DNA of 64,000 nt from Escherichia coli (GCF_003334385.1 NZ_QOWN01000006.1), one strand, 5' to 3'. Shown: positions 3,056-10,613, counted from the first letter of the stretch. A program made the numbers and translations. The notes: a model not told the origin generated them from the sequence alone.

Positions 3056-3514
3056 ATGAATCCCCTGCGTGTCGATCTGCGCGCTGGCACCTTCGCCGCA
3101 GATCCACTCTTCCAGACGCTCGCTAAGCGCTTCATCCGTCAGCTTCTCGCGCCCACGTAATGCACACTCCCAGACAATCAATACGCGCCAGCCGAGTTCC
3201 TGCAAACGACTGATATCGCGGCGATCGCGTTCAACATTTTTACCTATCTTCTCCAGCCAGAACTCGGTTCGAGTCGCAGGCACTTTAAACAGATAGCAGT
3301 GATGATGATGCCAGAAGCAGCCGTGGGTAAATATCACGCAGCGATATTCATCAACGACAAAATCCGGGCGTCCGGGCAGACTGGCGTCCTGAACGCGAAA
3401 TGCCAGGCCCTGCCCGGTTAACAGACTGGCGAGGCGCTTCTCTATCGCCGTATCACGCGTGGCAATCGCGCGCATATTTTTGCTGCGAGTGGCCTTATCG
3501 TGAACGTCGGCCAT
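3044..3514 (-). CDS. vsr: Very-short-patch repair endonuclease Vsr
   Basis: Internal start [32 protein letters not shown]... within the listed 210-aa ORF; 156 aa; overlaps the dcm 3' end. Confidence 0.9.
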
Positions 3515-4913
3515 GTTGTGCCTCTTGCTGACGCAACGCCACCGCCTGTTTGATTTTTGGCTCAAGCAGTTTTGCCACCGCGGCAAAGACCGGCACGACC
3601 ACCGAGTTACCGAACTGGCGATAGGCCTGAGTGTCCGAAACCGGAATGCGGAATTTCGCTTCTCCCGGCGCTTCAAAACCCATTAAGCGCGCGCATTCCC
3701 GAGGCGTTAACCGACGTGGACGATGTTGCTGATTCAGCGGATCGTCAAAGTCTTTCTCACCCGTGGCCATATCCCAGCCGCGATCGATTAAAATTTCCGC
3801 GCCATCTTTGTAATAACGCGCAGACAGCGTACGCGTGACGCTTTGCGGATTGTTAGGATAGACCATTCCATAACCGAAGCCGTTACCGCGCGCCTGATGT
3901 TTTTTCGCATAACGATAGAGGTACTTCCACAGCACCGGCGTCAGGATATATTTCGCCTCGACCATCGGGTCCAGCAGCTGTGCCAGCGTCACTCGCTGTG
4001 CAGGGAAACATTCGCTGATATCACGCAGAGTAAAATCGGCTTTCAGATTCAGATCGCGACGAAAACCCACCAGCACGATGCGTTCACGGTGCTGCGGCAG
4101 AAAATGTTTACCATCGATGATTTTCGGATCGTCCGGCCCGTTATCTTCTGCATCAGCCACGTCATAGCCCAGTTCGTCCAGCGTCTGCATGATGATGCGG
4201 AACGTTTTACCCTGGTCGTGGCTTTTCAGGTTTTTGACGTTTTCGAGCACAAACATCGCCGGACGACGCGCGTCGATAATGCGCACCACATCAAAGAACA
4301 GCGTGCCCTGAGTATCGCAGGCAAAACCGTGCGCCCGCCCGAGCGAGTTCTTTTTCGATACGCCAGCCAGCGAAAATGGCTGACAAGGGAAACCGGCCAG
4401 TAAAACATCGTGTTCAGGAATGTGTTTACGAATATGTTCCGCCGCCGCCTCATCACTCACGCCTTCTTTATGGCTGAGGGTGATGTCGCGGATATCTTCA
4501 TTAAAATGATGCGTCGCCGGGTCGCAATAATGATTGGCTTTATAAGTGCGTACCGCATGTTTGTTCCATTCGCTGGTAAACACGCATTGTCCGCCAATCG
4601 ATTCAAAACCGCGACGGATGCCGCCAATTCCGGCAAATAGATCGATAAAGCGAAACGCATAATGCGGATGATGTGCCGGTGGTTTGGGTAACAACGTTTG
4701 CAGATGGGCGAACTCTTTCTCACTTAAACGGTGCCATGCCGAGTCATTCGCCAGCGCACGTTTTAAAATTGCCGCGCTCCAGTGATTCTCACCCACACCA
4801 TTAAGCTGCGCCACCAGCGTTTTAACATCATAAATTTGCAGCAGTTTCTCCAGCATTGCCTGTGCGGCATTCCCGGTGCTGTATGAATCGGTTACTGATA
4901 TATTTTCCTGCAT
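3495..4913 (-). CDS. dcm: DNA cytosine-5 methyltransferase Dcm
   Basis: Motifs FAGIGG and PCQPFS (catalytic Cys) present; start taken at MQENIS (alternative start 4922). Confidence 0.9.
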
Positions 4914-4979
4914 AGATTTCACCGGCCATCTGAGATGGCCGACAGGTTAACATAATTACAGCCATTTAGGGCCACGCGC

Positions 4980-5675
4980 TCAGCCAGCGGATGAAAACGC
5001 ATCTATCACCTTGTGATCGACACCTTCATTCTCCCCCGCCAGTTCGGCACTGAGCTTCGCCATAAACTCGACTAAAAAATGCGCGTTGTGCTGCGCCAGC
5101 TGCTTGCCTCTTGCGGTTTGCATGGTTTGCGGTAGCTTCAGCAACTTAGTCTGGAAATGATCCAGCGCGTAGCGTTTATCATCAAGCGGGCGATGCTGTG
5201 CGAGCGGATCTTCACCATCAAACAGCGCCACGCCCAATGCCCCTGAAACGGCAAACACGCGCGCCAGGCCAATCGCTCCCAGGGCTTCCAGCCGATCTGC
5301 ATCCAGGACGATTTTAGCTTCCGTGGTTAAGGGGGCGATTTGCGCGCTGAAACTGTGAGCGGCAATGGCATGACAAACGGCCTCAATTTTCTCCGCCGGA
5401 AATTGCACGAACTCTTCACGGAGCAGGCGACGCGTCTCTTCTGCTGCCAGGATTGAAGAACGCTGCCTTTGCGGATGATTTTTCGCCAGGCTCACAATAT
5501 CGTGAAAATAACAGGCGGTTAAAATCACCAGCATATCGACGTCGTCATCTGCCGCCAGCTTCTGTGCCGTAGCCCAGACGCGGCGAAAATGACACACGTC
5601 ATGGGCCGCGTCCTGGTGCTGATGATGGTTTTTCAACCAATTTTCGAACTGTGCCTGCCAGTGTTGTAAGTCCAT
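4980..5675 (-). CDS. yedJ: HD-domain phosphohydrolase YedJ
   Basis: 231-aa ORF with H..HD motif (CYFHDIV); synteny. Confidence 0.75.
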
Positions 5676-5714
5676 ACGCGCTCCGTTGCCAAAGAGTCGC
5701 CACCTTAGCAGTTT

Positions 5715-6017
5715 TTATTCATAGCGTCTGCTACGTGCGGGACGAGGTCGGGTGTACCAGGCAATGCTGCCTAACAATGCCCCGACCAGAGCCATAAATA
5801 AAAATCCGACCAGTGCCCCTAACCACTTTCCCGCGGTAGAGCCTAAATCGCTTTCAAATCCCGACACGGGGGCATCGGGGATCCGGCTCATCACCCAGAT
5901 GTAACGCGCCATTGCCCAGACGAAATAGCCACACCATGTATAGAAAGCCCACAAAGCCAGTTTGCCGCCAGGGCTGCGAGAGAGTCTCTCTTCCATCTTT
6001 GTCGAACCGTATTCCAT
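5715..6017 (-). CDS. yedR: Small inner membrane protein YedR (start uncertain; ORF could extend to 6098 with a TTG)
   Basis: Hydrophobic small ORF; synteny. Confidence 0.55.
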   Translation of the reverse strand: MEYGSTKMEERLSRSPGGKLALWAFYTWCGYFVWAMARYIWVMSRIPDAPVSGFESDLGSTAGKWLGALVGFLFMALVGALLGSIAWYTRPRPARSRRYE

Positions 6018-6243
6018 TTTGAGATAACCCGGAAAATTCAGACTTAGTACTATTATGTGATAAAAGTCACATTTTTCCACATTGGATGAGCCAGTCAAGA
6101 CTCACTCATTTTTTGAACAAATAGATAATTTTTGCGCAACGGCAGTGAATACAGGAAAAATCGTTTTGAGCGATTTTATTTATCTTTGATATCGGCTTTA
6201 TTAATTCATTTAATCAATATATTAGCACTGATTACAATTATAC

Positions 6244-6335
6244 CTTTTTATTATTCTGTGTCATGATGCTTACGTTATTAGCCTTTTATCGTCTTGTTTA
6301 TATTTTTTGGGCCGGCATGATGCCGGCTTTTTTTA
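6244..6335 (+). ncRNA. Candidate small RNA (RseX-like position) ending at a strong intrinsic terminator
   Basis: Hairpin gggccggcatgatgccggc plus T-run at about 6309-6335 with no upstream plus-strand CDS; TACAAT -10-like hexamer at about 6232; RseX is reported between yedR and yedS in K-12 (recalled, not aligned). Confidence 0.3.
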
Positions 6336-6645
6336 TACCTTCATTAATGTGCGCGTGATCACACCAAGTGTTTAGCGCAACAATCATTGATACTCCCTAT
6401 CTTTCCGCTTAACTCATAACATATTGATATACATTTATAATTTTCATGAATATTTATATTTGGAATTCATGATTCTGAATTATATTAAATAGATTAGAAA
6501 CATTTTGAAATCTTTTAAATACATTTGTTGCATGTAATCCTTAAAATAAAATGAAGTTCATAGAATAGTATCCAAATGTGCTTTTTTTTGGATAACGGCA
6601 CTTATTGATATATTCATGAAGATTATAATCACAAGGGAATACATA

Positions 6646-7704
6646 ATGAAAAGAAAAGTTCTGGCAATGCTGGTCCCGGCGTTATTAGTTGCTGGCGCAG
6701 CAAATGCGGCTGAAATTTATAATAAAAATGGCAATAAACTGGATTTGTACGGCAAGATGGTTGGTGAGCGCATTCTGACCGACCGTGAAAATGGTGAAAA
6801 AGGCGATAATTCTCAAGATACCTCTTATGCCCGTGTAGGCGTGAAAGGTGAAACTCAGATCAACCCTGAATTGACTGGTTACGGTCAGTTTGAACTAGAC
6901 CTGGAAGCATCAAACAGACACAACCCTGACCAAACTCGTTTGGCTTATGCTGGTTTGAGTTACAAAGATTTTGGTTCATTCGACTATGGTCGTAATGTCG
7001 GTGTCGCGTATGATGCAGAAGCATTTACTGATATGTTTGTTGAGTGGGGCGGTGATTCATGGGCTGGTACTGACCTGTTCATGACCAACCGTACCAACGG
7101 TGTTGCAACCTATCGTAACACAGATTTCTTTGGCATGGTTGAAGGTCTAAATTTTGCTCTGCAATATCAGGGTAAAAATGAAGGTACAGGCAACTACAAA
7201 GCAAATGGCGATGGCCATGGTTTATCTGTAACTTACACTATTGACGGTTTCTCATTTGCTGGTGCTTACGCAAACTCTGATCGTACTGATTTCCAGTCTA
7301 GTGATAGTAAAGGTGAAAAAGCAGAAGTTTGGGCACTGTCAACAAAATATGATGCCAACAACGTCTATGCTGCTGTGATGTACGGTGAATCTCACAACAT
7401 GAATTCCGACGACGGTGATGTTGTGAACAAAACACAAAACTTCGAAGTTGTTCTGCAATATCAGTTCGACTTCGGTCTGCGTCCATCCATCGGTTACTCC
7501 TATTCTAAAGCACTGGACGTAGCAGGTTACAAAGATTCTGATCGTCTGAACTACATTGAAATCGGTACCTGGTATTACTTCAATAAGAACATGAACGTAT
7601 ATACCGCTTATCAGATCAACCTGCTTGATAAGAGTGATTATGTTCTCGCTCATGGACTGAACACCGACGACCAACTCGCATTTGGTATCGTCTACCAGTT
7701 CTAA
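6646..7704 (+). CDS. yedS: OmpC/OmpF-family general porin (YedS-like), apparently intact
   Basis: Signal peptide MKRKVLAMLVPALLVAGAANA, C-terminal YQF, beta-barrel porin pattern; RBS aaggg upstream of the ATG at 6646. Confidence 0.85.
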   Translation: MKRKVLAMLVPALLVAGAANAAEIYNKNGNKLDLYGKMVGERILTDRENGEKGDNSQDTSYARVGVKGETQINPELTGYGQFELDLEASNRHNPDQTRLAYAGLSYKDFGSFDYGRNVGVAYDAEAFTDMFVEWGGDSWAGTDLFMTNRTNGVATYRNTDFFGMVEGLNFALQYQGKNEGTGNYKANGDGHGLSVTYTIDGFSFAGAYANSDRTDFQSSDSKGEKAEVWALSTKYDANNVYAAVMYGESHNMNSDDGDVVNKTQNFEVVLQYQFDFGLRPSIGYSYSKALDVAGYKDSDRLNYIEIGTWYYFNKNMNVYTAYQINLLDKSDYVLAHGLNTDDQLAFGIVYQF

Positions 7705-7746
7705 TCAGCCAACGCGCCGCGGCGTGTTACTGTAAAACTTAACACT

Positions 7747-7785
7747 AGCCTGAGTTCGTCCCTCATCGAACTCAGGCTTTTTTAT
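7747..7785 (+). terminator. Intrinsic terminator of the porin gene
   Basis: agcctgagttcg...cgaactcaggct stem followed by a T-run. Confidence 0.7.
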
Positions 7786-8295
7786 TGGCATTTTATCTCC
7801 CTCTGCGGCACGCGCAATTGCCAAAGCATATCGATACAGCACCTTACCCTGCCCCTGCTGGCACAATAACATCTACCAGCGACTCTTCCAGCCAAGACCC
7901 AAATGCATTTCTTTATGAATTAATCTGCAACAAAACCGCCTCCCATATAGAAATATTTGCAAAAATAGTGCATGAAATACGCTTTTTCTCTACCAATCCG
8001 GGATATAAATATTCATCAGCACCACAATATTCCACAGCACTAAATCTCTCCCCGTCGCCCCGTACCTCTGATAATGGTCTAAAATCATTGAGGCCACTTG
8101 CGACGACGTTGCTCAATAAGGAAAATTTGGCGTGAATAATATTCAACACCAGTGCAGCATCATCATTACATACTTACACCCGCCGACGACCGCTTTCGAT
8201 ATATTGACTCAATTTTCCAGCCTGGTTAAAAATAGCGACCAGCTCAGTCGAAAATATAGTGACTACCCTAACTAAGCAACAATAAGGAATACACT

Positions 8296-9147
8296 ATGAC
8301 TGTTCAAACAAGTAAAAATCCGCAGGTCGATATTGCTGAAGATAATGCATTCTTCCCTTCAGAATATTCGCTTAGCCAATATACCAGTCCCGTCTCTGAT
8401 CTTGATGGCGTGGACTATCCAAAACCGTATCGCGGTAAGCATAAAATTCTGGTGATCGCCGCGGACGAACGTTATTTGCCAACCGATAACGGAAAACTGT
8501 TCTCGACCGGTAACCATCCGATTGAAACGTTGCTGCCGTTGTATCATCTCCATGCTGCAGGTTTCGAATTCGAAGTGGCGACCATTTCCGGTCTGATGAC
8601 CAAGTTTGAATACTGGGCTATGCCGCACAAAGATGAAAAAGTAATGCCATTCTTTGAGCAGCATAAATCGTTGTTCCGCAATCCGAAGAAACTCGCGGAT
8701 GTTGTCGCCAGCCTCAACGCTGACAGCGAATATGCAGCAATCTTTGTTCCTGGTGGTCATGGCGCACTTATTGGTTTACCAGAAAGCCAGGACGTAGCTG
8801 CTGCTTTGCAGTGGGCAATCAAAAATGACCGTTTTGTTATCTCCCTTTGCCACGGCCCGGCGGCTTTTCTGGCGCTTCGCCACGGCGATAACCCACTGAA
8901 TGGTTATTCCATTTGCGCATTCCCAGACGCCGCAGACAAACAAACGCCAGAGATAGGCTATATGCCGGGTCATCTCACCTGGTACTTCGGCGAAGAGCTG
9001 AAGAAAATGGGCATGAACATTATTAATGACGACATCACCGGGCGAGTACATAAGGACCGTAAAGTTCTCACCGGCGACAGTCCTTTCGCAGCGAATGCGT
9101 TGGGTAAACTGGCGGCGCAGGAAATGCTGGCAGCTTATGCGGGTTAA
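8296..9147 (+). CDS. hchA: Hsp31 chaperone / glyoxalase III (DJ-1/PfpI family)
   Basis: 283-aa ORF with catalytic Cys context SLCHGPAA; synteny. Confidence 0.9.
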   Translation: MTVQTSKNPQVDIAEDNAFFPSEYSLSQYTSPVSDLDGVDYPKPYRGKHKILVIAADERYLPTDNGKLFSTGNHPIETLLPLYHLHAAGFEFEVATISGLMTKFEYWAMPHKDEKVMPFFEQHKSLFRNPKKLADVVASLNADSEYAAIFVPGGHGALIGLPESQDVAAALQWAIKNDRFVISLCHGPAAFLALRHGDNPLNGYSICAFPDAADKQTPEIGYMPGHLTWYFGEELKKMGMNIINDDITGRVHKDRKVLTGDSPFAANALGKLAAQEMLAAYAG

Positions 9148-9254: not shown

Positions 9255-10613
9255 TTAATTTCTTTGCGGTAACATAATCCGGAACACATTATGCTTATTG
9301 AGATAGTGATACGTAGCACTTCCCCCATGTAATTCGGCAATCGCTTTGACTAAAGAAAGACCAAGTCCCTGACCTACGGAATGACGCGAATTATCTCCCC
9401 GCCAAAATCTACGGAAGAGTTTTTCAGGCTCATGAATTTTCGTTCCAGGACTGGCGACATCAATATTAAGATAGCCGTTGGTATCAAGAAAACTGGTTAT
9501 CTCAATACGCGATTTTTCTGGTGAATATCTAATGGCATTAACAATAAGATTCGATAACATTCGTTGCAGTAAAATTTTATCCGCAAAGATTTGCTGATTG
9601 CACTCGACCTTAAAGCAAATCTCTTTCTCGTCTGAAAGGTATTCAAGATAATCCAACAAATTTTCGACTTCCTTATTGAGAGAAAGCGAGTCCAGTTTCA
9701 CCAAAACATTGTTTTTATCTGCCCGGGCAAGAAACAGTATGTTCTCTGTTAACCGCGAAATATTTTCCAGCTCTTCAATGTTACCGGCAATTGTTTTTTG
9801 ATATTCAGCGATACTTCTGGTTTGACTGAGCGTAACCTGATTCTGACCCAGTAATGCATTAATGGGCGTTCTAAGTTCATGAGCGAGATCGTCAGCAAAT
9901 TGACTTAGGCGTTCAAAATCTTTGACTAAAGCATGATGCATTTTATTCAACGCCTGCCCAAGAGGTTTTAGTTCTCTCGGTAATGCGCTAACCTCAACAG
10001 GCTCCCGGCTATCGTTATAATTCAGCGCTTCCGTTACACCACTCAACTTTTTGATCTCTCGTAACCCCGTTCGGATTAACAGCGGACTTAATACTGAGCA
10101 CAGTATAATGGCGACAATGCAAATTATAATGCTATTGATTTTATACTGTTCAAGCATGTTATGTCTGGCTGAAGCCAATTTAGCCACAGTAACCGTTAAT
10201 GATGGCGAAACTTCATCAATATTAATTCGTAAAGCATCTATCTCTGTATCATTAATAATGCTTCTGTAAATGCCAGCTGCGCTGATTGTCTCACTAGCAG
10301 GTATGTTATTTAACATGCCATCACTGACATTTGTCCGGTTAACAATTTTATTGATGCTATCACCATGAATGATCAAGATATCCTGACTAACATCCATCAT
10401 CCGGTTAAAGTACACAGGTAACGTATCTGGATTTACCCCATCAATTAACAACTGCTTGATCTGTGCTGTCCGGTTAATGAGTGTTGTATCATCGCGCCAT
10501 TTCAACTCACTTGCCAGGCCATTATAGAGAGTCCAGACAATTCCAGCACCAGCAACAGACAGTAGCAATATAAAAAGCAAGGTTAAACGGACGGTTATAG
10601 ACAATCTTTTCAT
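9255..10613 (-). CDS. hprS: Two-component sensor histidine kinase HprS (YedV)
   Basis: 452 aa; N-terminal transmembrane segments; H-box LAHELRTPI; ATPase motifs near the C-terminus. Confidence 0.85.
   Translation of the reverse strand: MKRLSITVRLTLLFILLLSVAGAGIVWTLYNGLASELKWRDDTTLINRTAQIKQLLIDGVNPDTLPVYFNRMMDVSQDILIIHGDSINKIVNRTNVSDGMLNNIPASETISAAGIYRSIINDTEIDALRINIDEVSPSLTVTVAKLASARHNMLEQYKINSIIICIVAIILCSVLSPLLIRTGLREIKKLSGVTEALNYNDSREPVEVSALPRELKPLGQALNKMHHALVKDFERLSQFADDLAHELRTPINALLGQNQVTLSQTRSIAEYQKTIAGNIEELENISRLTENILFLARADKNNVLVKLDSLSLNKEVENLLDYLEYLSDEKEICFKVECNQQIFADKILLQRMLSNLIVNAIRYSPEKSRIEITSFLDTNGYLNIDVASPGTKIHEPEKLFRRFWRGDNSRHSVGQGLGLSLVKAIAELHGGSATYHYLNKHNVFRIMLPQRN

What the first reader, a model, noticed from the sequence alone, without database searches (positions are those of the whole stretch)
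6100..7704. Intact YedS-type porin with a terminator-defined small-RNA candidate upstream
The porin ORF is full length with an intact signal peptide (it is disrupted in K-12 as I recall). About 300 bp upstream, a strong intrinsic terminator on the same strand (6309-6335) has no CDS feeding it, which fits a small RNA of about 90 nt. This is the position reported for RseX, which targets ompA and ompC mRNAs. The long AT-rich leader (6100-6640) suggests dense regulation.
Basis: partly seen in the sequence, partly recalled or inferred. Interest (0 to 1): 0.3.

Follow-up and report, generated by a model that had tools for sequence, protein, structure and literature searches.

The report
RseX small RNA beside intact porin
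This stretch of an Escherichia coli chromosome holds the already described small regulatory RNA RseX followed by an intact outer-membrane pore gene at the place where the laboratory strain K-12 has the broken gene yedS; this is ordinary, except that the pore protein is a very different version from the K-12 one.

Summary
The window is the E. coli dcm-yedJ-drpB / rseX / porin / hchA-hprS locus. The terminator-defined RNA at 6245-6334 (+) is rseX: Rfam RF01401 scores 96.8 bits against a gathering score of 50. It differs from K-12 by one loop substitution and one T fewer in the tail. RseX is a known Hfq-dependent sRNA, silenced by H-NS, that represses ompA, ompC and fepA.

The porin CDS (6646-7704, 352 aa) is intact: signal peptide, full-length Pfam Porin_1 match, conserved pore-constriction residues and C-terminal Phe. 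K-12 carries a frameshifted pseudogene with an internal stop at this site.

Two refinements:
- "YedS-type" is true by position only. The flanks are 92-100% identical to K-12, but the mature-protein coding part (about 6713-7690) is only 47-70% identical in DNA and 60% in protein. It is one of at least four deeply diverged allele classes at this locus and is found in about 21% of complete E. coli genomes. It groups with the syntenic porins of Klebsiella oxytoca, Enterobacter and E. fergusonii and with OmpK35, not with K-12 YedS.
- 6100-6640 is not one leader. It holds the drpB and rseX promoters, rseX, a CRP box and a conserved porin promoter block.

Verdict: already known, low interest.

The parts
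5715..5996 (-). drpB (yedR) CDS, left neighbour. The published start, ATG-22, would extend it to 6017.
   Evidence: RefSeq annotation of near-identical loci; start site discussed in PMC7648144.
6018..6098 (-). drpB promoter region, divergent from rseX.
   Evidence: Two sigma-70-like sites on the minus strand at 6098..6071 and 6079..6052. PMC7648144 places the drpB promoter between the old GTG-1 and ATG-22.
6205..6244 (+). rseX promoter region, with -10 TACAAT at 6233-6238 and a weak -35 TTAATC at 6210-6215.
   Evidence: Read directly from the sequence. 6200-6244 is 100% identical to K-12, where 5' RACE supports a sigma-70 promoter (Douchin 2006, as cited in PMC8313858). It was not picked up by the consensus scan.
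6245..6334 (+). rseX small RNA gene, 90 nt.
   Evidence: Rfam RF01401, 96.8 bits against a gathering score of 50, model positions 1-94 of 94. One substitution (6272 A where K-12 has C, in the loop of hairpin 1) and one T fewer than K-12.
6309..6334 (+). Rho-independent terminator of rseX (GGGCCGGCA-UGA-UGCCGGCUU plus U tail). Its loop is the element reported to drive fepA repression.
   Evidence: Stem and loop are identical to K-12. PMC11979758.
6345..6365 (.). CRP box, taaTGTGCgcgtgaTCACAcc.
   Evidence: Same site as K-12 coordinate 2033766 (ggTGTGAtcaggcGCACAtta on the other strand), with an in vitro Kd of 4.9 nM in Footprint-seq (PMC12871828). Both half-sites are intact here, with one change in the spacer.
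6495..6645 (+). Conserved promoter-proximal block of the porin gene, including the Shine-Dalgarno AGGGA at 6634-6638.
   Evidence: 85-87% identical in E. fergusonii and 58-60% in K. oxytoca, against 32-60% for the segments of the spacer upstream of 6495. Contains ACATTTTGAAA, identical to the core of the sequence I recall as the ompC OmpR box C1 (weak, E 0.04).
6646..7704 (+). Intact general porin gene, 352 aa. Signal peptide 6646-6708, mature protein 6709-7701.
   Evidence: Pfam Porin_1, 370 bits, model positions 1-337 of 337. Best solved relative is OmpK35 at 443 bits. Below the NCBIfam cut-offs for OmpF, PhoE and OmpC. 99% identical to a cluster of 2356 E. coli sequences named 'porin'. The AF2 model shows 16 strands.
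6713..7690 (+). Allelic cassette: the part of the porin gene that differs deeply between E. coli strains.
   Evidence: In 100-bp bins, identity to K-12 and to the 357-aa and 371-aa alleles falls to 47-78% inside this range and is 89-100% outside it.
7747..7784 (+). Rho-independent terminator of the porin gene.
   Evidence: 12-pair stem followed by a T run. Conserved in K-12.

Best explanation
The region is the E. coli rseX-porin locus between drpB and hchA, and it contains two independent genes.

(1) rseX (6245-6334) is transcribed from its own sigma-70 promoter and ended by a Rho-independent terminator. It gives a roughly 90-nt Hfq-dependent sRNA. In K-12 this RNA is silenced by H-NS/StpA. 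When made, it lowers OmpA and OmpC synthesis, and through its terminator loop it lowers FepA.

(2) Starting 311 bp downstream of the terminator is an intact classical 16-stranded trimeric general-diffusion porin of 352 aa. It has its own conserved promoter-proximal block and its own terminator.

The porin is not the K-12 YedS lineage. It is one of at least four deeply diverged allele classes that replace one another by homologous recombination in the conserved flanks. The break points lie at the end of the signal peptide and at the last codons.

Shown here: the identity and intactness of both genes, the cassette structure, the allele frequencies and purifying selection within the class.

Inferred from K-12 literature and from AT-richness: the locus is probably silent under laboratory conditions, and RseX and the porin are probably de-repressed together.
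For: rseX:
- Rfam 96.8 bits with a full-length match.
- 89 of 90 positions identical to K-12, plus one T missing from the tail.
- Terminator found by scan and by folding.
- Promoter region 100% identical to K-12.
- rseX is found upstream of all three other E. coli allele classes and in E. fergusonii, but not in the K. oxytoca or Enterobacter loci.
- Published biology: PMC8313858, PMC11979758, PMC7648144.

Porin:
- Full-length Pfam Porin_1 match.
- 443 bits to OmpK35, 370 to OmpF and 365 to PhoE.
- The residues aligned with OmpF K16, R42, R82, R132, D113 and E117 are conserved (K, R, R, R and D are invariant columns).
- The sequence ends in YQF.
- The AF2 model has 16 strands.
- dN/dS is 0.0135/0.0914 against the NC101 sub-allele, which indicates purifying selection.

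Cassette:
- Flanks are 89-100% identical and the core 47-78% identical to the other classes.
- Surface loops other than L3 are 39-43% identical; strands are 63-77% identical.
- Class counts among 5426 complete genomes: about 1140-1171 for the window class, about 1599 for the 357/371-aa classes and about 1662 for the K-12 type.
- The synteny dcm-yedJ-drpB-porin holds in K. oxytoca and E. fergusonii; in Enterobacter the same neighbourhood holds but without a called drpB gene.

Silencing: GC is 29-31% across 6000-6650.
Against: - No expression data exist for this strain, so transcription of either gene is unproven here.
- The porin transcription start is not mapped. The promoter block is inferred from conservation only, and the similarity to an OmpR box is a single 11-mer (E 0.04).
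- The AF2 model has only moderate confidence (mean pLDDT 68), so the loop boundaries are approximate.
- Allele counts come from megablast coverage and identity bands, not from a per-genome typing.
- Co-regulation of rseX and the porin is an inference. PMC8313858 says only that 'RseX and surrounding areas' rise without H-NS in K-12.
Confidence: 0.9

Rival explanations
1. The terminator at 6309-6334 is an attenuator within a long porin leader. Transcription would start at the rseX promoter and read through conditionally into the porin gene, so RseX would be a by-product of leader termination rather than an independent sRNA gene.
For: The RNA and the porin are on the same strand, 311 bp apart, with no other gene between them. 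A CRP box sits just after the terminator. The porin transcription start is unmapped.
Against: RseX acts in trans on ompA, ompC and fepA (PMC11979758, PMC8313858). The block 6495-6645 next to the porin ATG is conserved in K. oxytoca, which has no rseX, so the porin has its own control region. The terminator is strong, with a 9-pair GC-rich stem and seven U.
Confidence: 0.07
2. The porin gene is a recent horizontal acquisition from another genus and is decaying or non-functional; it is intact only by chance.
For: GC is 42-45%, below the roughly 54% of the genes to the left. The locus is silenced in K-12. IS-disrupted and deleted versions exist in other strains.
Against: No near-identical donor was found outside E. 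coli among 5.8 billion proteins; the best non-E. coli named hit is K. oxytoca at 69%. The porin position is syntenic across genera. dN/dS of about 0.15 within the class indicates purifying selection. The class is present, mostly full length, in about 21% of complete genomes.
Confidence: 0.05
3. The allele classes descend from tandem paralogues, as in E. fergusonii, which has two porin genes here. Different lineages would have kept different copies.
For: E. fergusonii carries a second porin gene directly downstream (L010 5663-6772).
Against: That second porin has a different signal peptide. It is only 63-65% identical to K-12 YedS and 54-56% identical to the window porin, so it is ancestral to neither. 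All E. coli classes share the same signal-peptide DNA and the same 3' flank.
Confidence: 0.05

Closest known systems
RseX sRNA of E. coli K-12 (Rfam RF01401; Douchin et al. 2006, as cited in PMC8313858)
   Same: Same locus and strand. 89 of 90 positions are identical, with the same two hairpins, terminator loop and promoter region.
   Different: One A-for-C change in the loop of hairpin 1 (6272) and seven U instead of eight in the tail. No functional difference is expected, but none was tested.
YedS of E. coli K-12 (pseudogene) and the intact YedS reported in a clinical isolate (Warner et al. 2013; known to me only through citations in PMC4048246 and PMC11267920)
   Same: Same chromosomal position. 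The upstream region, signal peptide, last codons and terminator are identical or nearly so.
   Different: The mature protein is only 60% identical and is 331 residues against 376, with much shorter loops L4-L7. L3 reads VEWGGDSW where K-12 YedS has PEFGGDTY. The two fall on opposite sides of the split with 87% support in the NJ tree. I could not check which allele the Warner isolate carried.
OmpK35 of Klebsiella pneumoniae (PDB 9hn1, 5o77) and OmpF and PhoE of E. coli
   Same: Same fold family. The best solved-structure match is OmpK35, which shares the VEWGGD form of L3. The constriction residues are conserved.
   Different: 62% identity to OmpK35, 57% to OmpF, 59% to PhoE and 53% to OmpC. 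Scores are below the NCBIfam cut-offs for all three E. coli families. It has N where PhoE has K in the aligned motif MTKR (from memory this is PhoE K125, the anion-selectivity determinant). It sits at a different locus.
Syntenic drpB-adjacent porins of K. oxytoca, Enterobacter hormaechei and E. fergusonii, and the 357-aa and 371-aa E. coli alleles
   Same: Same position downstream of the dcm-yedJ(-drpB) genes, the same signal peptide and the same VEWGGD form of L3. They form one side of the split with 87% support, which also includes OmpK35.
   Different: Only 67-70% identical. The window class forms its own branch together with a few apparently mosaic sequences (P0008, P0011, P0015; 86% support). 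rseX is present only in the Escherichia loci.
sRNA-next-to-porin pairs micF-ompC and micC-ompN; quiescent, H-NS-silenced porins OmpS1 and OmpS2 of Salmonella (all from my own knowledge)
   Same: An sRNA that represses other major outer-membrane proteins is encoded beside a porin gene. The control region is AT-rich and H-NS-silenced.
   Different: rseX is co-oriented with and upstream of the porin, not divergent from it. No relation to OmpS1 was tested here.

Membership tests
RseX sRNA (Rfam RF01401) | Covariance-model score at or above the curated gathering score, over the full length | tested here: met
   96.8 bits against 50, model positions 1-94 of 94.
RseX sRNA (Rfam RF01401) | Located between drpB (yedR) and the yedS-locus porin, on the porin strand | tested here: met
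   Window 6245-6334 (+), between drpB (5715-5996, -) and the porin (6646-7704, +). Same layout as K-12.
RseX sRNA (Rfam RF01401) | Rho-independent terminator with a U tail (the 3' module of Hfq-dependent sRNAs), with the K-12 loop sequence | tested here: met
   Stem and loop are identical to K-12, and the tail has 7 U.
RseX sRNA (Rfam RF01401) | Transcribed as a roughly 91-nt RNA; binds Hfq; represses ompA, ompC and fepA | not testable with these tools
   Literature exists for K-12 only (PMC8313858, PMC11979758). An RNAduplex test was uninformative even for the known target ompC.
General bacterial porin, OmpC/OmpF/PhoE type (Pfam Porin_1, PF00267) | Full-length match to the family profile | tested here: met
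   370.1 bits, residues 27-352, model positions 1-337 of 337.
General bacterial porin, OmpC/OmpF/PhoE type (Pfam Porin_1, PF00267) | Cleavable signal peptide ending A-x-A, and a C-terminal aromatic residue | tested here: met
   MKRKVLAMLVPALLVAGAANA followed by AEIYNK; the protein ends in YQF. Read directly from the sequence; no signal-peptide predictor was run.
General bacterial porin, OmpC/OmpF/PhoE type (Pfam Porin_1, PF00267) | 16-stranded barrel with the L3 constriction loop and conserved basic and acidic pore residues | tested here: met
   The AF2 model has 16 strands (pLDDT 68). Residues aligned with OmpF K16, R42, R82, R132, D113 and E117 are conserved. The OmpF numbering is from my own knowledge.
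YedS of K-12 (orthologue by descent) | Same chromosomal locus | tested here: met
   Flanks are 91-100% identical to K-12 on both sides.
YedS of K-12 (orthologue by descent) | Mature protein closer to K-12 YedS than to other porin lineages | tested here: not met
   60% identity to K-12 YedS against 67-69% to the syntenic porins and 62% to OmpK35. The two fall on opposite sides of the split with 87% support.
OmpF, PhoE or OmpC equivalogs (NCBIfam NF007446, NF007544, NF007841) | Score at or above the curated cut-off | tested here: not met
   414.9 against 583, 407.8 against 599 and 391.8 against 484.

The most novel reading that the evidence does not exclude
The drpB-hchA porin site of E. coli carries an old, balanced polymorphism. 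At least four cassette-like porin lineages, 60-69% identical and differing mostly in surface loops, are swapped by recombination in conserved flanks. This would be driven by phages, colicins or host antibodies. Because the conserved flank includes rseX, de-repression of the H-NS-silenced locus would act as a porin-switch module: the strain-specific alternative porin goes up while RseX takes OmpC and OmpA down. The window allele has the shortest loops, has no relative above 70% among named sequences outside E. coli, and would be one functional state of that switch.
Probability: 0.3. Interest if true: 0.4.

Novelty: already known. Interest (0 to 1): 0.12.

Why it matters
It matters little beyond correct annotation. 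RseX and its position next to the yedS porin locus are textbook knowledge for sRNA specialists, and the porin is already annotated as 'porin' in thousands of E. coli genomes.

The useful by-product is a caution. 'yedS' in non-K-12 strains is not one gene but several deeply different porins at one site. This bears on studies that link 'YedS' to carbapenem susceptibility, or that use the yedR-yedS spacer as a host marker (PMC11267920).

A strain such as this one, with rseX and an intact porin, would be a suitable background for asking whether the sRNA and its neighbour are switched on together.

Tried and rejected
(1) Tandem-paralogue origin of the allele classes. The second E. fergusonii porin is only 54-65% identical to any E. 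coli class and has a different signal peptide, so the idea is not supported.

(2) RseX pairing with the neighbouring porin's translation-initiation region. RNAduplex with full-length RseX opened the terminator and scored no better than shuffles (262 of 500 shuffles). With nt 1-63 only, the result was again no better (846 of 1000), and the known target ompC was not significant either (214 of 1000). The test is uninformative, not negative.

(3) Coding potential in rseX. The 31-aa ORF at 6263-6358 has no Shine-Dalgarno sequence, runs past the terminator and would be frameshifted by the extra T in K-12. Rejected.

(4) Similarity of the porin's upstream region to the ompC promoter. Only an 11-mer, ACATTTTGAAA, is shared (E 0.04). 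Kept as a hint only.

(5) Weak Rfam hits to STnc430, RyhB and MicX (18-28 bits, all far below their gathering scores). The first two reflect only the terminator hairpin.

(6) The first bootstrap run compared rooted clades with unrooted replicates and gave meaningless supports. It was replaced by the bipartition count.

(7) The Warner et al. 2013 YedS paper could not be read, so I could not determine which allele was studied there.

(8) rseX in Klebsiella or Enterobacter: no hit at the gathering threshold, and no terminator-like hairpin at the aligned position in K. oxytoca.

Full report
**Where we are.** ORF listing and comparison with complete E. coli genomes place the finding in the chromosomal segment vsr-dcm-yedJ-drpB(yedR) / rseX / porin / hchA-hprS. 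Window coordinates are:
- dcm, 3495-4922 (-)
- yedJ, 4980-5675 (-)
- drpB, 5715-5996 (-)
- porin, 6646-7704 (+)
- hchA, 8296-9147 (+)
- hprS, 9255-10613 (-)

The closest complete genome over 6000-7800 is strain 1919D62, at 99.8% identity.

**The observation.** The + strand carries a 9-pair, GC-rich hairpin at 6309-6329 followed by seven T up to 6334. Only mechanical ORFs of 31-44 aa overlap it. The porin ORF is uninterrupted. Its real start is the ATG at 6646, preceded by AGGGA at 6634-6638, as RefSeq annotates in the near-identical strain. It begins with the signal peptide MKRKVLAMLVPALLVAGAANA. In K-12 the gene at this site is annotated 'frameshifted; internal stop', and I see both lesions in the alignment and translation. 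The spacer 6000-6650 has 29-31% GC, against about 54% in the genes to the left.

**The small RNA is RseX.**
- Rfam family RF01401 (rseX) matches 6245-6334 (+) over the whole model at 96.8 bits, against a gathering score of 50.
- Against K-12 there is one substitution, at 6272 in the loop of the first hairpin, and one T fewer in the tail. The terminator stem and loop are identical.
- The 45 bp upstream (6200-6244), with a TACAAT -10 at 6233-6238, are 100% identical to K-12.

What is published on RseX, for K-12:
- It is a roughly 91-nt Hfq-dependent sRNA found as a multicopy suppressor of RseP essentiality, and it lowers OmpA and OmpC.
- Its native transcript was undetectable until H-NS was removed; StpA backs up the silencing; Fis, H-NS and Rob occupancy peaks lie at its promoter (PMC8313858).
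- Its 3' end, and specifically the loop of its terminator, represses fepA in an Hfq- and RNase E-dependent way (PMC11979758).

rseX is present upstream of every E. coli porin allele class I examined and, more diverged (68.8 bits), in E. fergusonii. It is not found at the syntenic loci of K. oxytoca or Enterobacter hormaechei (alignment).

**The porin.**
- The 352-aa product matches Pfam Porin_1 end to end (370 bits).
- Its best solved relatives are OmpK35 (443 bits), Klebsiella PhoE, E. coli OmpF and E. coli PhoE.
- Mature-protein identities are 62% to OmpK35, 57% to OmpF, 59% to PhoE and 53% to OmpC.
- It scores below the curated NCBIfam cut-offs for OmpF, PhoE and OmpC, so it is a distinct, unnamed general porin.
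- Residues aligned with the OmpF pore-lining K16, R42, R82 and R132 and the L3 acidic D113 and E117 are conserved (the numbering is from my own knowledge).
- L3 reads VEWGGDSW, as in OmpK35, rather than PEFGGD.
- The position aligned with the K of PhoE's MTKR motif is N (that this K is K125, the anion-selectivity determinant, is from memory).
- An AlphaFold model built on 29 homologues has moderate confidence (mean pLDDT 68) and shows the expected 16 strands.
- The protein is 99% identical to a cluster of 2356 E. coli sequences named only 'porin'.

**'YedS-type' is true by position only.**
- Aligning 6000-7800 with K-12 shows 92-100% identity up to codon 23 and again from the last few codons onward. 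Between about 6713 and 7690 identity is 47-70%, with many indels.
- Reconstructed K-12 YedS (397 aa) is 60% identical to the window protein.
- Other E. coli strains carry a 357-aa or a 371-aa porin at the same site. These are 90% identical to each other and 68-69% identical to the window protein.
- NC101 carries a 97%-identical sub-allele of the window class.
- Elsewhere the gene is split by an IS element or has been partly deleted together with hchA.

Approximate class counts among 5426 complete genomes, from searches with the divergent cores:

| Allele class | Genomes | Share |
|---|---|---|
| Window class (352 aa) | 1140-1171 | 21% |
| 357-aa and 371-aa classes | about 1599 | 29% |
| K-12 type | about 1662 | 31% |

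Further features of the cassette:
- Divergence is concentrated in the modelled surface loops. Loops other than L3 are 39-43% identical. Strands are 75-77% identical to the 357-aa, 371-aa and K. oxytoca porins and 63% identical to K-12 YedS.
- The window allele has the shortest L4-L7 loops of the four classes.
- Within the class, dN/dS against NC101 is 0.0135/0.0914, about 0.15, so the gene is under purifying selection.
- NC101's flanks are more diverged from the window (88-95%) than most of its porin core (mostly 94-100%; one 100-bp bin is 91%). This hints at exchange of the cassette between lineages.

**Which lineage is it?** A porin downstream of dcm-yedJ-drpB is syntenic in K. oxytoca and E. 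fergusonii. Enterobacter hormaechei has the same neighbourhood but no called drpB gene. In an NJ tree with 300 bootstrap replicates:
- The window porin, the 357-aa and 371-aa alleles, these syntenic porins and OmpK35 lie on one side of a split with 87% support.
- K-12 YedS, OmpC, OmpF and PhoE lie on the other side.

So the window protein belongs to the lineage native to this locus across genera, and K-12 YedS looks like the odd one out. The window class is nevertheless a deep branch. Apart from a few apparently mosaic sequences of 77-92% identity, its best named non-E. coli relative among 5.8 billion proteins is K. oxytoca at 69%.

**The 'leader'.** 6100-6640 is not a single leader. From left to right it contains:
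- The drpB promoter region. Minus-strand sigma-70-like sites lie at 6098..6071 and 6079..6052, matching the mapped location in PMC7648144.
- The rseX promoter and gene.
- A CRP box, TGTGCgcgtgaTCACA, at 6348-6363. Its K-12 counterpart binds CRP in vitro with a Kd of 4.9 nM (PMC12871828).
- A poorly conserved AT-rich stretch.
- A block, 6495-6645, that stays 85-87% identical in E. fergusonii and about 60% identical in K. oxytoca, while the segments of the spacer upstream of 6495 fall to 32-60%.

That block contains ACATTTTGAAA, the core of what I recall as the ompC OmpR box C1, but this is one 11-mer with E 0.04. Because the block is conserved in a species that lacks rseX, the porin most likely has its own promoter there. 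The transcription start remains unmapped.

**Mechanism, with status.**
- Shown here: two intact genes, each with its own terminator; cassette-like allelic replacement of the mature-porin coding part; purifying selection on the window class.
- Established for K-12 in the literature and transferable because the sequences are identical or nearly so: RseX is made from a sigma-70 promoter, is silenced by H-NS/StpA, needs Hfq, and represses ompA, ompC and fepA.
- Inferred: the AT-rich spacer keeps both genes silent in laboratory culture. On de-repression, the alternative porin would appear while RseX lowers the major porins. This resembles the micF-ompC and micC-ompN neighbour pairs (from my own knowledge).

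**Comparison with what is known, and verdict.** Within the searchable library I found no description of the discrete allele classes. These are, however, plain to see in public annotation, and the pattern is typical of surface-exposed outer-membrane proteins. I rate the finding as already known and of low interest. One practical caveat follows: 'yedS' names several different proteins across E. coli strains.

Noticed in passing
window 6345-6365: CRP box taaTGTGCgcgtgaTCACAcc immediately after the rseX terminator. The K-12 equivalent is listed as a novel high-affinity CRP site (Kd 4.9 nM) assigned to yedS in a 2026 Footprint-seq preprint. It is unknown which promoter it serves.
   Followed up: partly
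window 6264..6237, minus strand: Near-consensus sigma-70-like site (ATGACA, 16-nt spacer, TATAAT; 11 of 12 matches) antisense to the first 20 nt of rseX. It is not the mapped drpB promoter. It could drive an antisense or long drpB transcript, or be a chance match in AT-rich DNA.
   Followed up: no
window 6495-6645: The promoter-proximal block of the porin is conserved to E. fergusonii (85-87%) and K. oxytoca (about 60%), unlike the rest of the spacer. It contains ACATTTTGAAA, as in the ompC regulatory region.
   Followed up: partly
window 6530: G in TTGTTGCATG where K-12, the 357-aa and 371-aa alleles, NC101, E. fergusonii and K. oxytoca all have A (GTTACA). The G is shared with strain 1919D62. 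It lies in the conserved block, so it might affect regulation.
   Followed up: no
L010 5663-6772 and 7231-8688 (E. fergusonii): A second porin gene (369 aa, with a different signal peptide) and a TrkH-family gene lie between the first porin and hchA. This gives a tandem porin pair at the syntenic locus.
   Followed up: partly
L005 3146-5542; L007 3146-3388: In other E. coli strains the porin at this site is split by an IS3-family element, or is truncated with loss of its 3' part and hchA. The locus is often damaged.
   Followed up: no
L006 (NC101) compared with window 5700-9147: NC101's flanks are 88-95% identical to the window, but most of the porin core is 94-100% identical (one 100-bp bin is 91%). 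This suggests the cassette moved between lineages more recently than the flanks diverged.
   Followed up: no
window 7800-8100: The spacer between the porin terminator and hchA has a strongly negative GC skew (down to -0.38) and is conserved in K-12. RefSeq annotates a 64-aa hypothetical protein there in one strain (L003 3361-3555, minus strand).
   Followed up: no
window 15159-15245 (-), 16237-16309 (+), 55789-55861 (-), 57610-57682 (+), 60019-60091 (+), 63814-63984 (-): The Rfam gathering scan of the whole window finds five tRNA genes, four of which have identical scores, and an EFASI RNA match (59.5 bits against a gathering score of 51.2) near the right end. About 39 kb lies between the second and third tRNA.
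   Followed up: no
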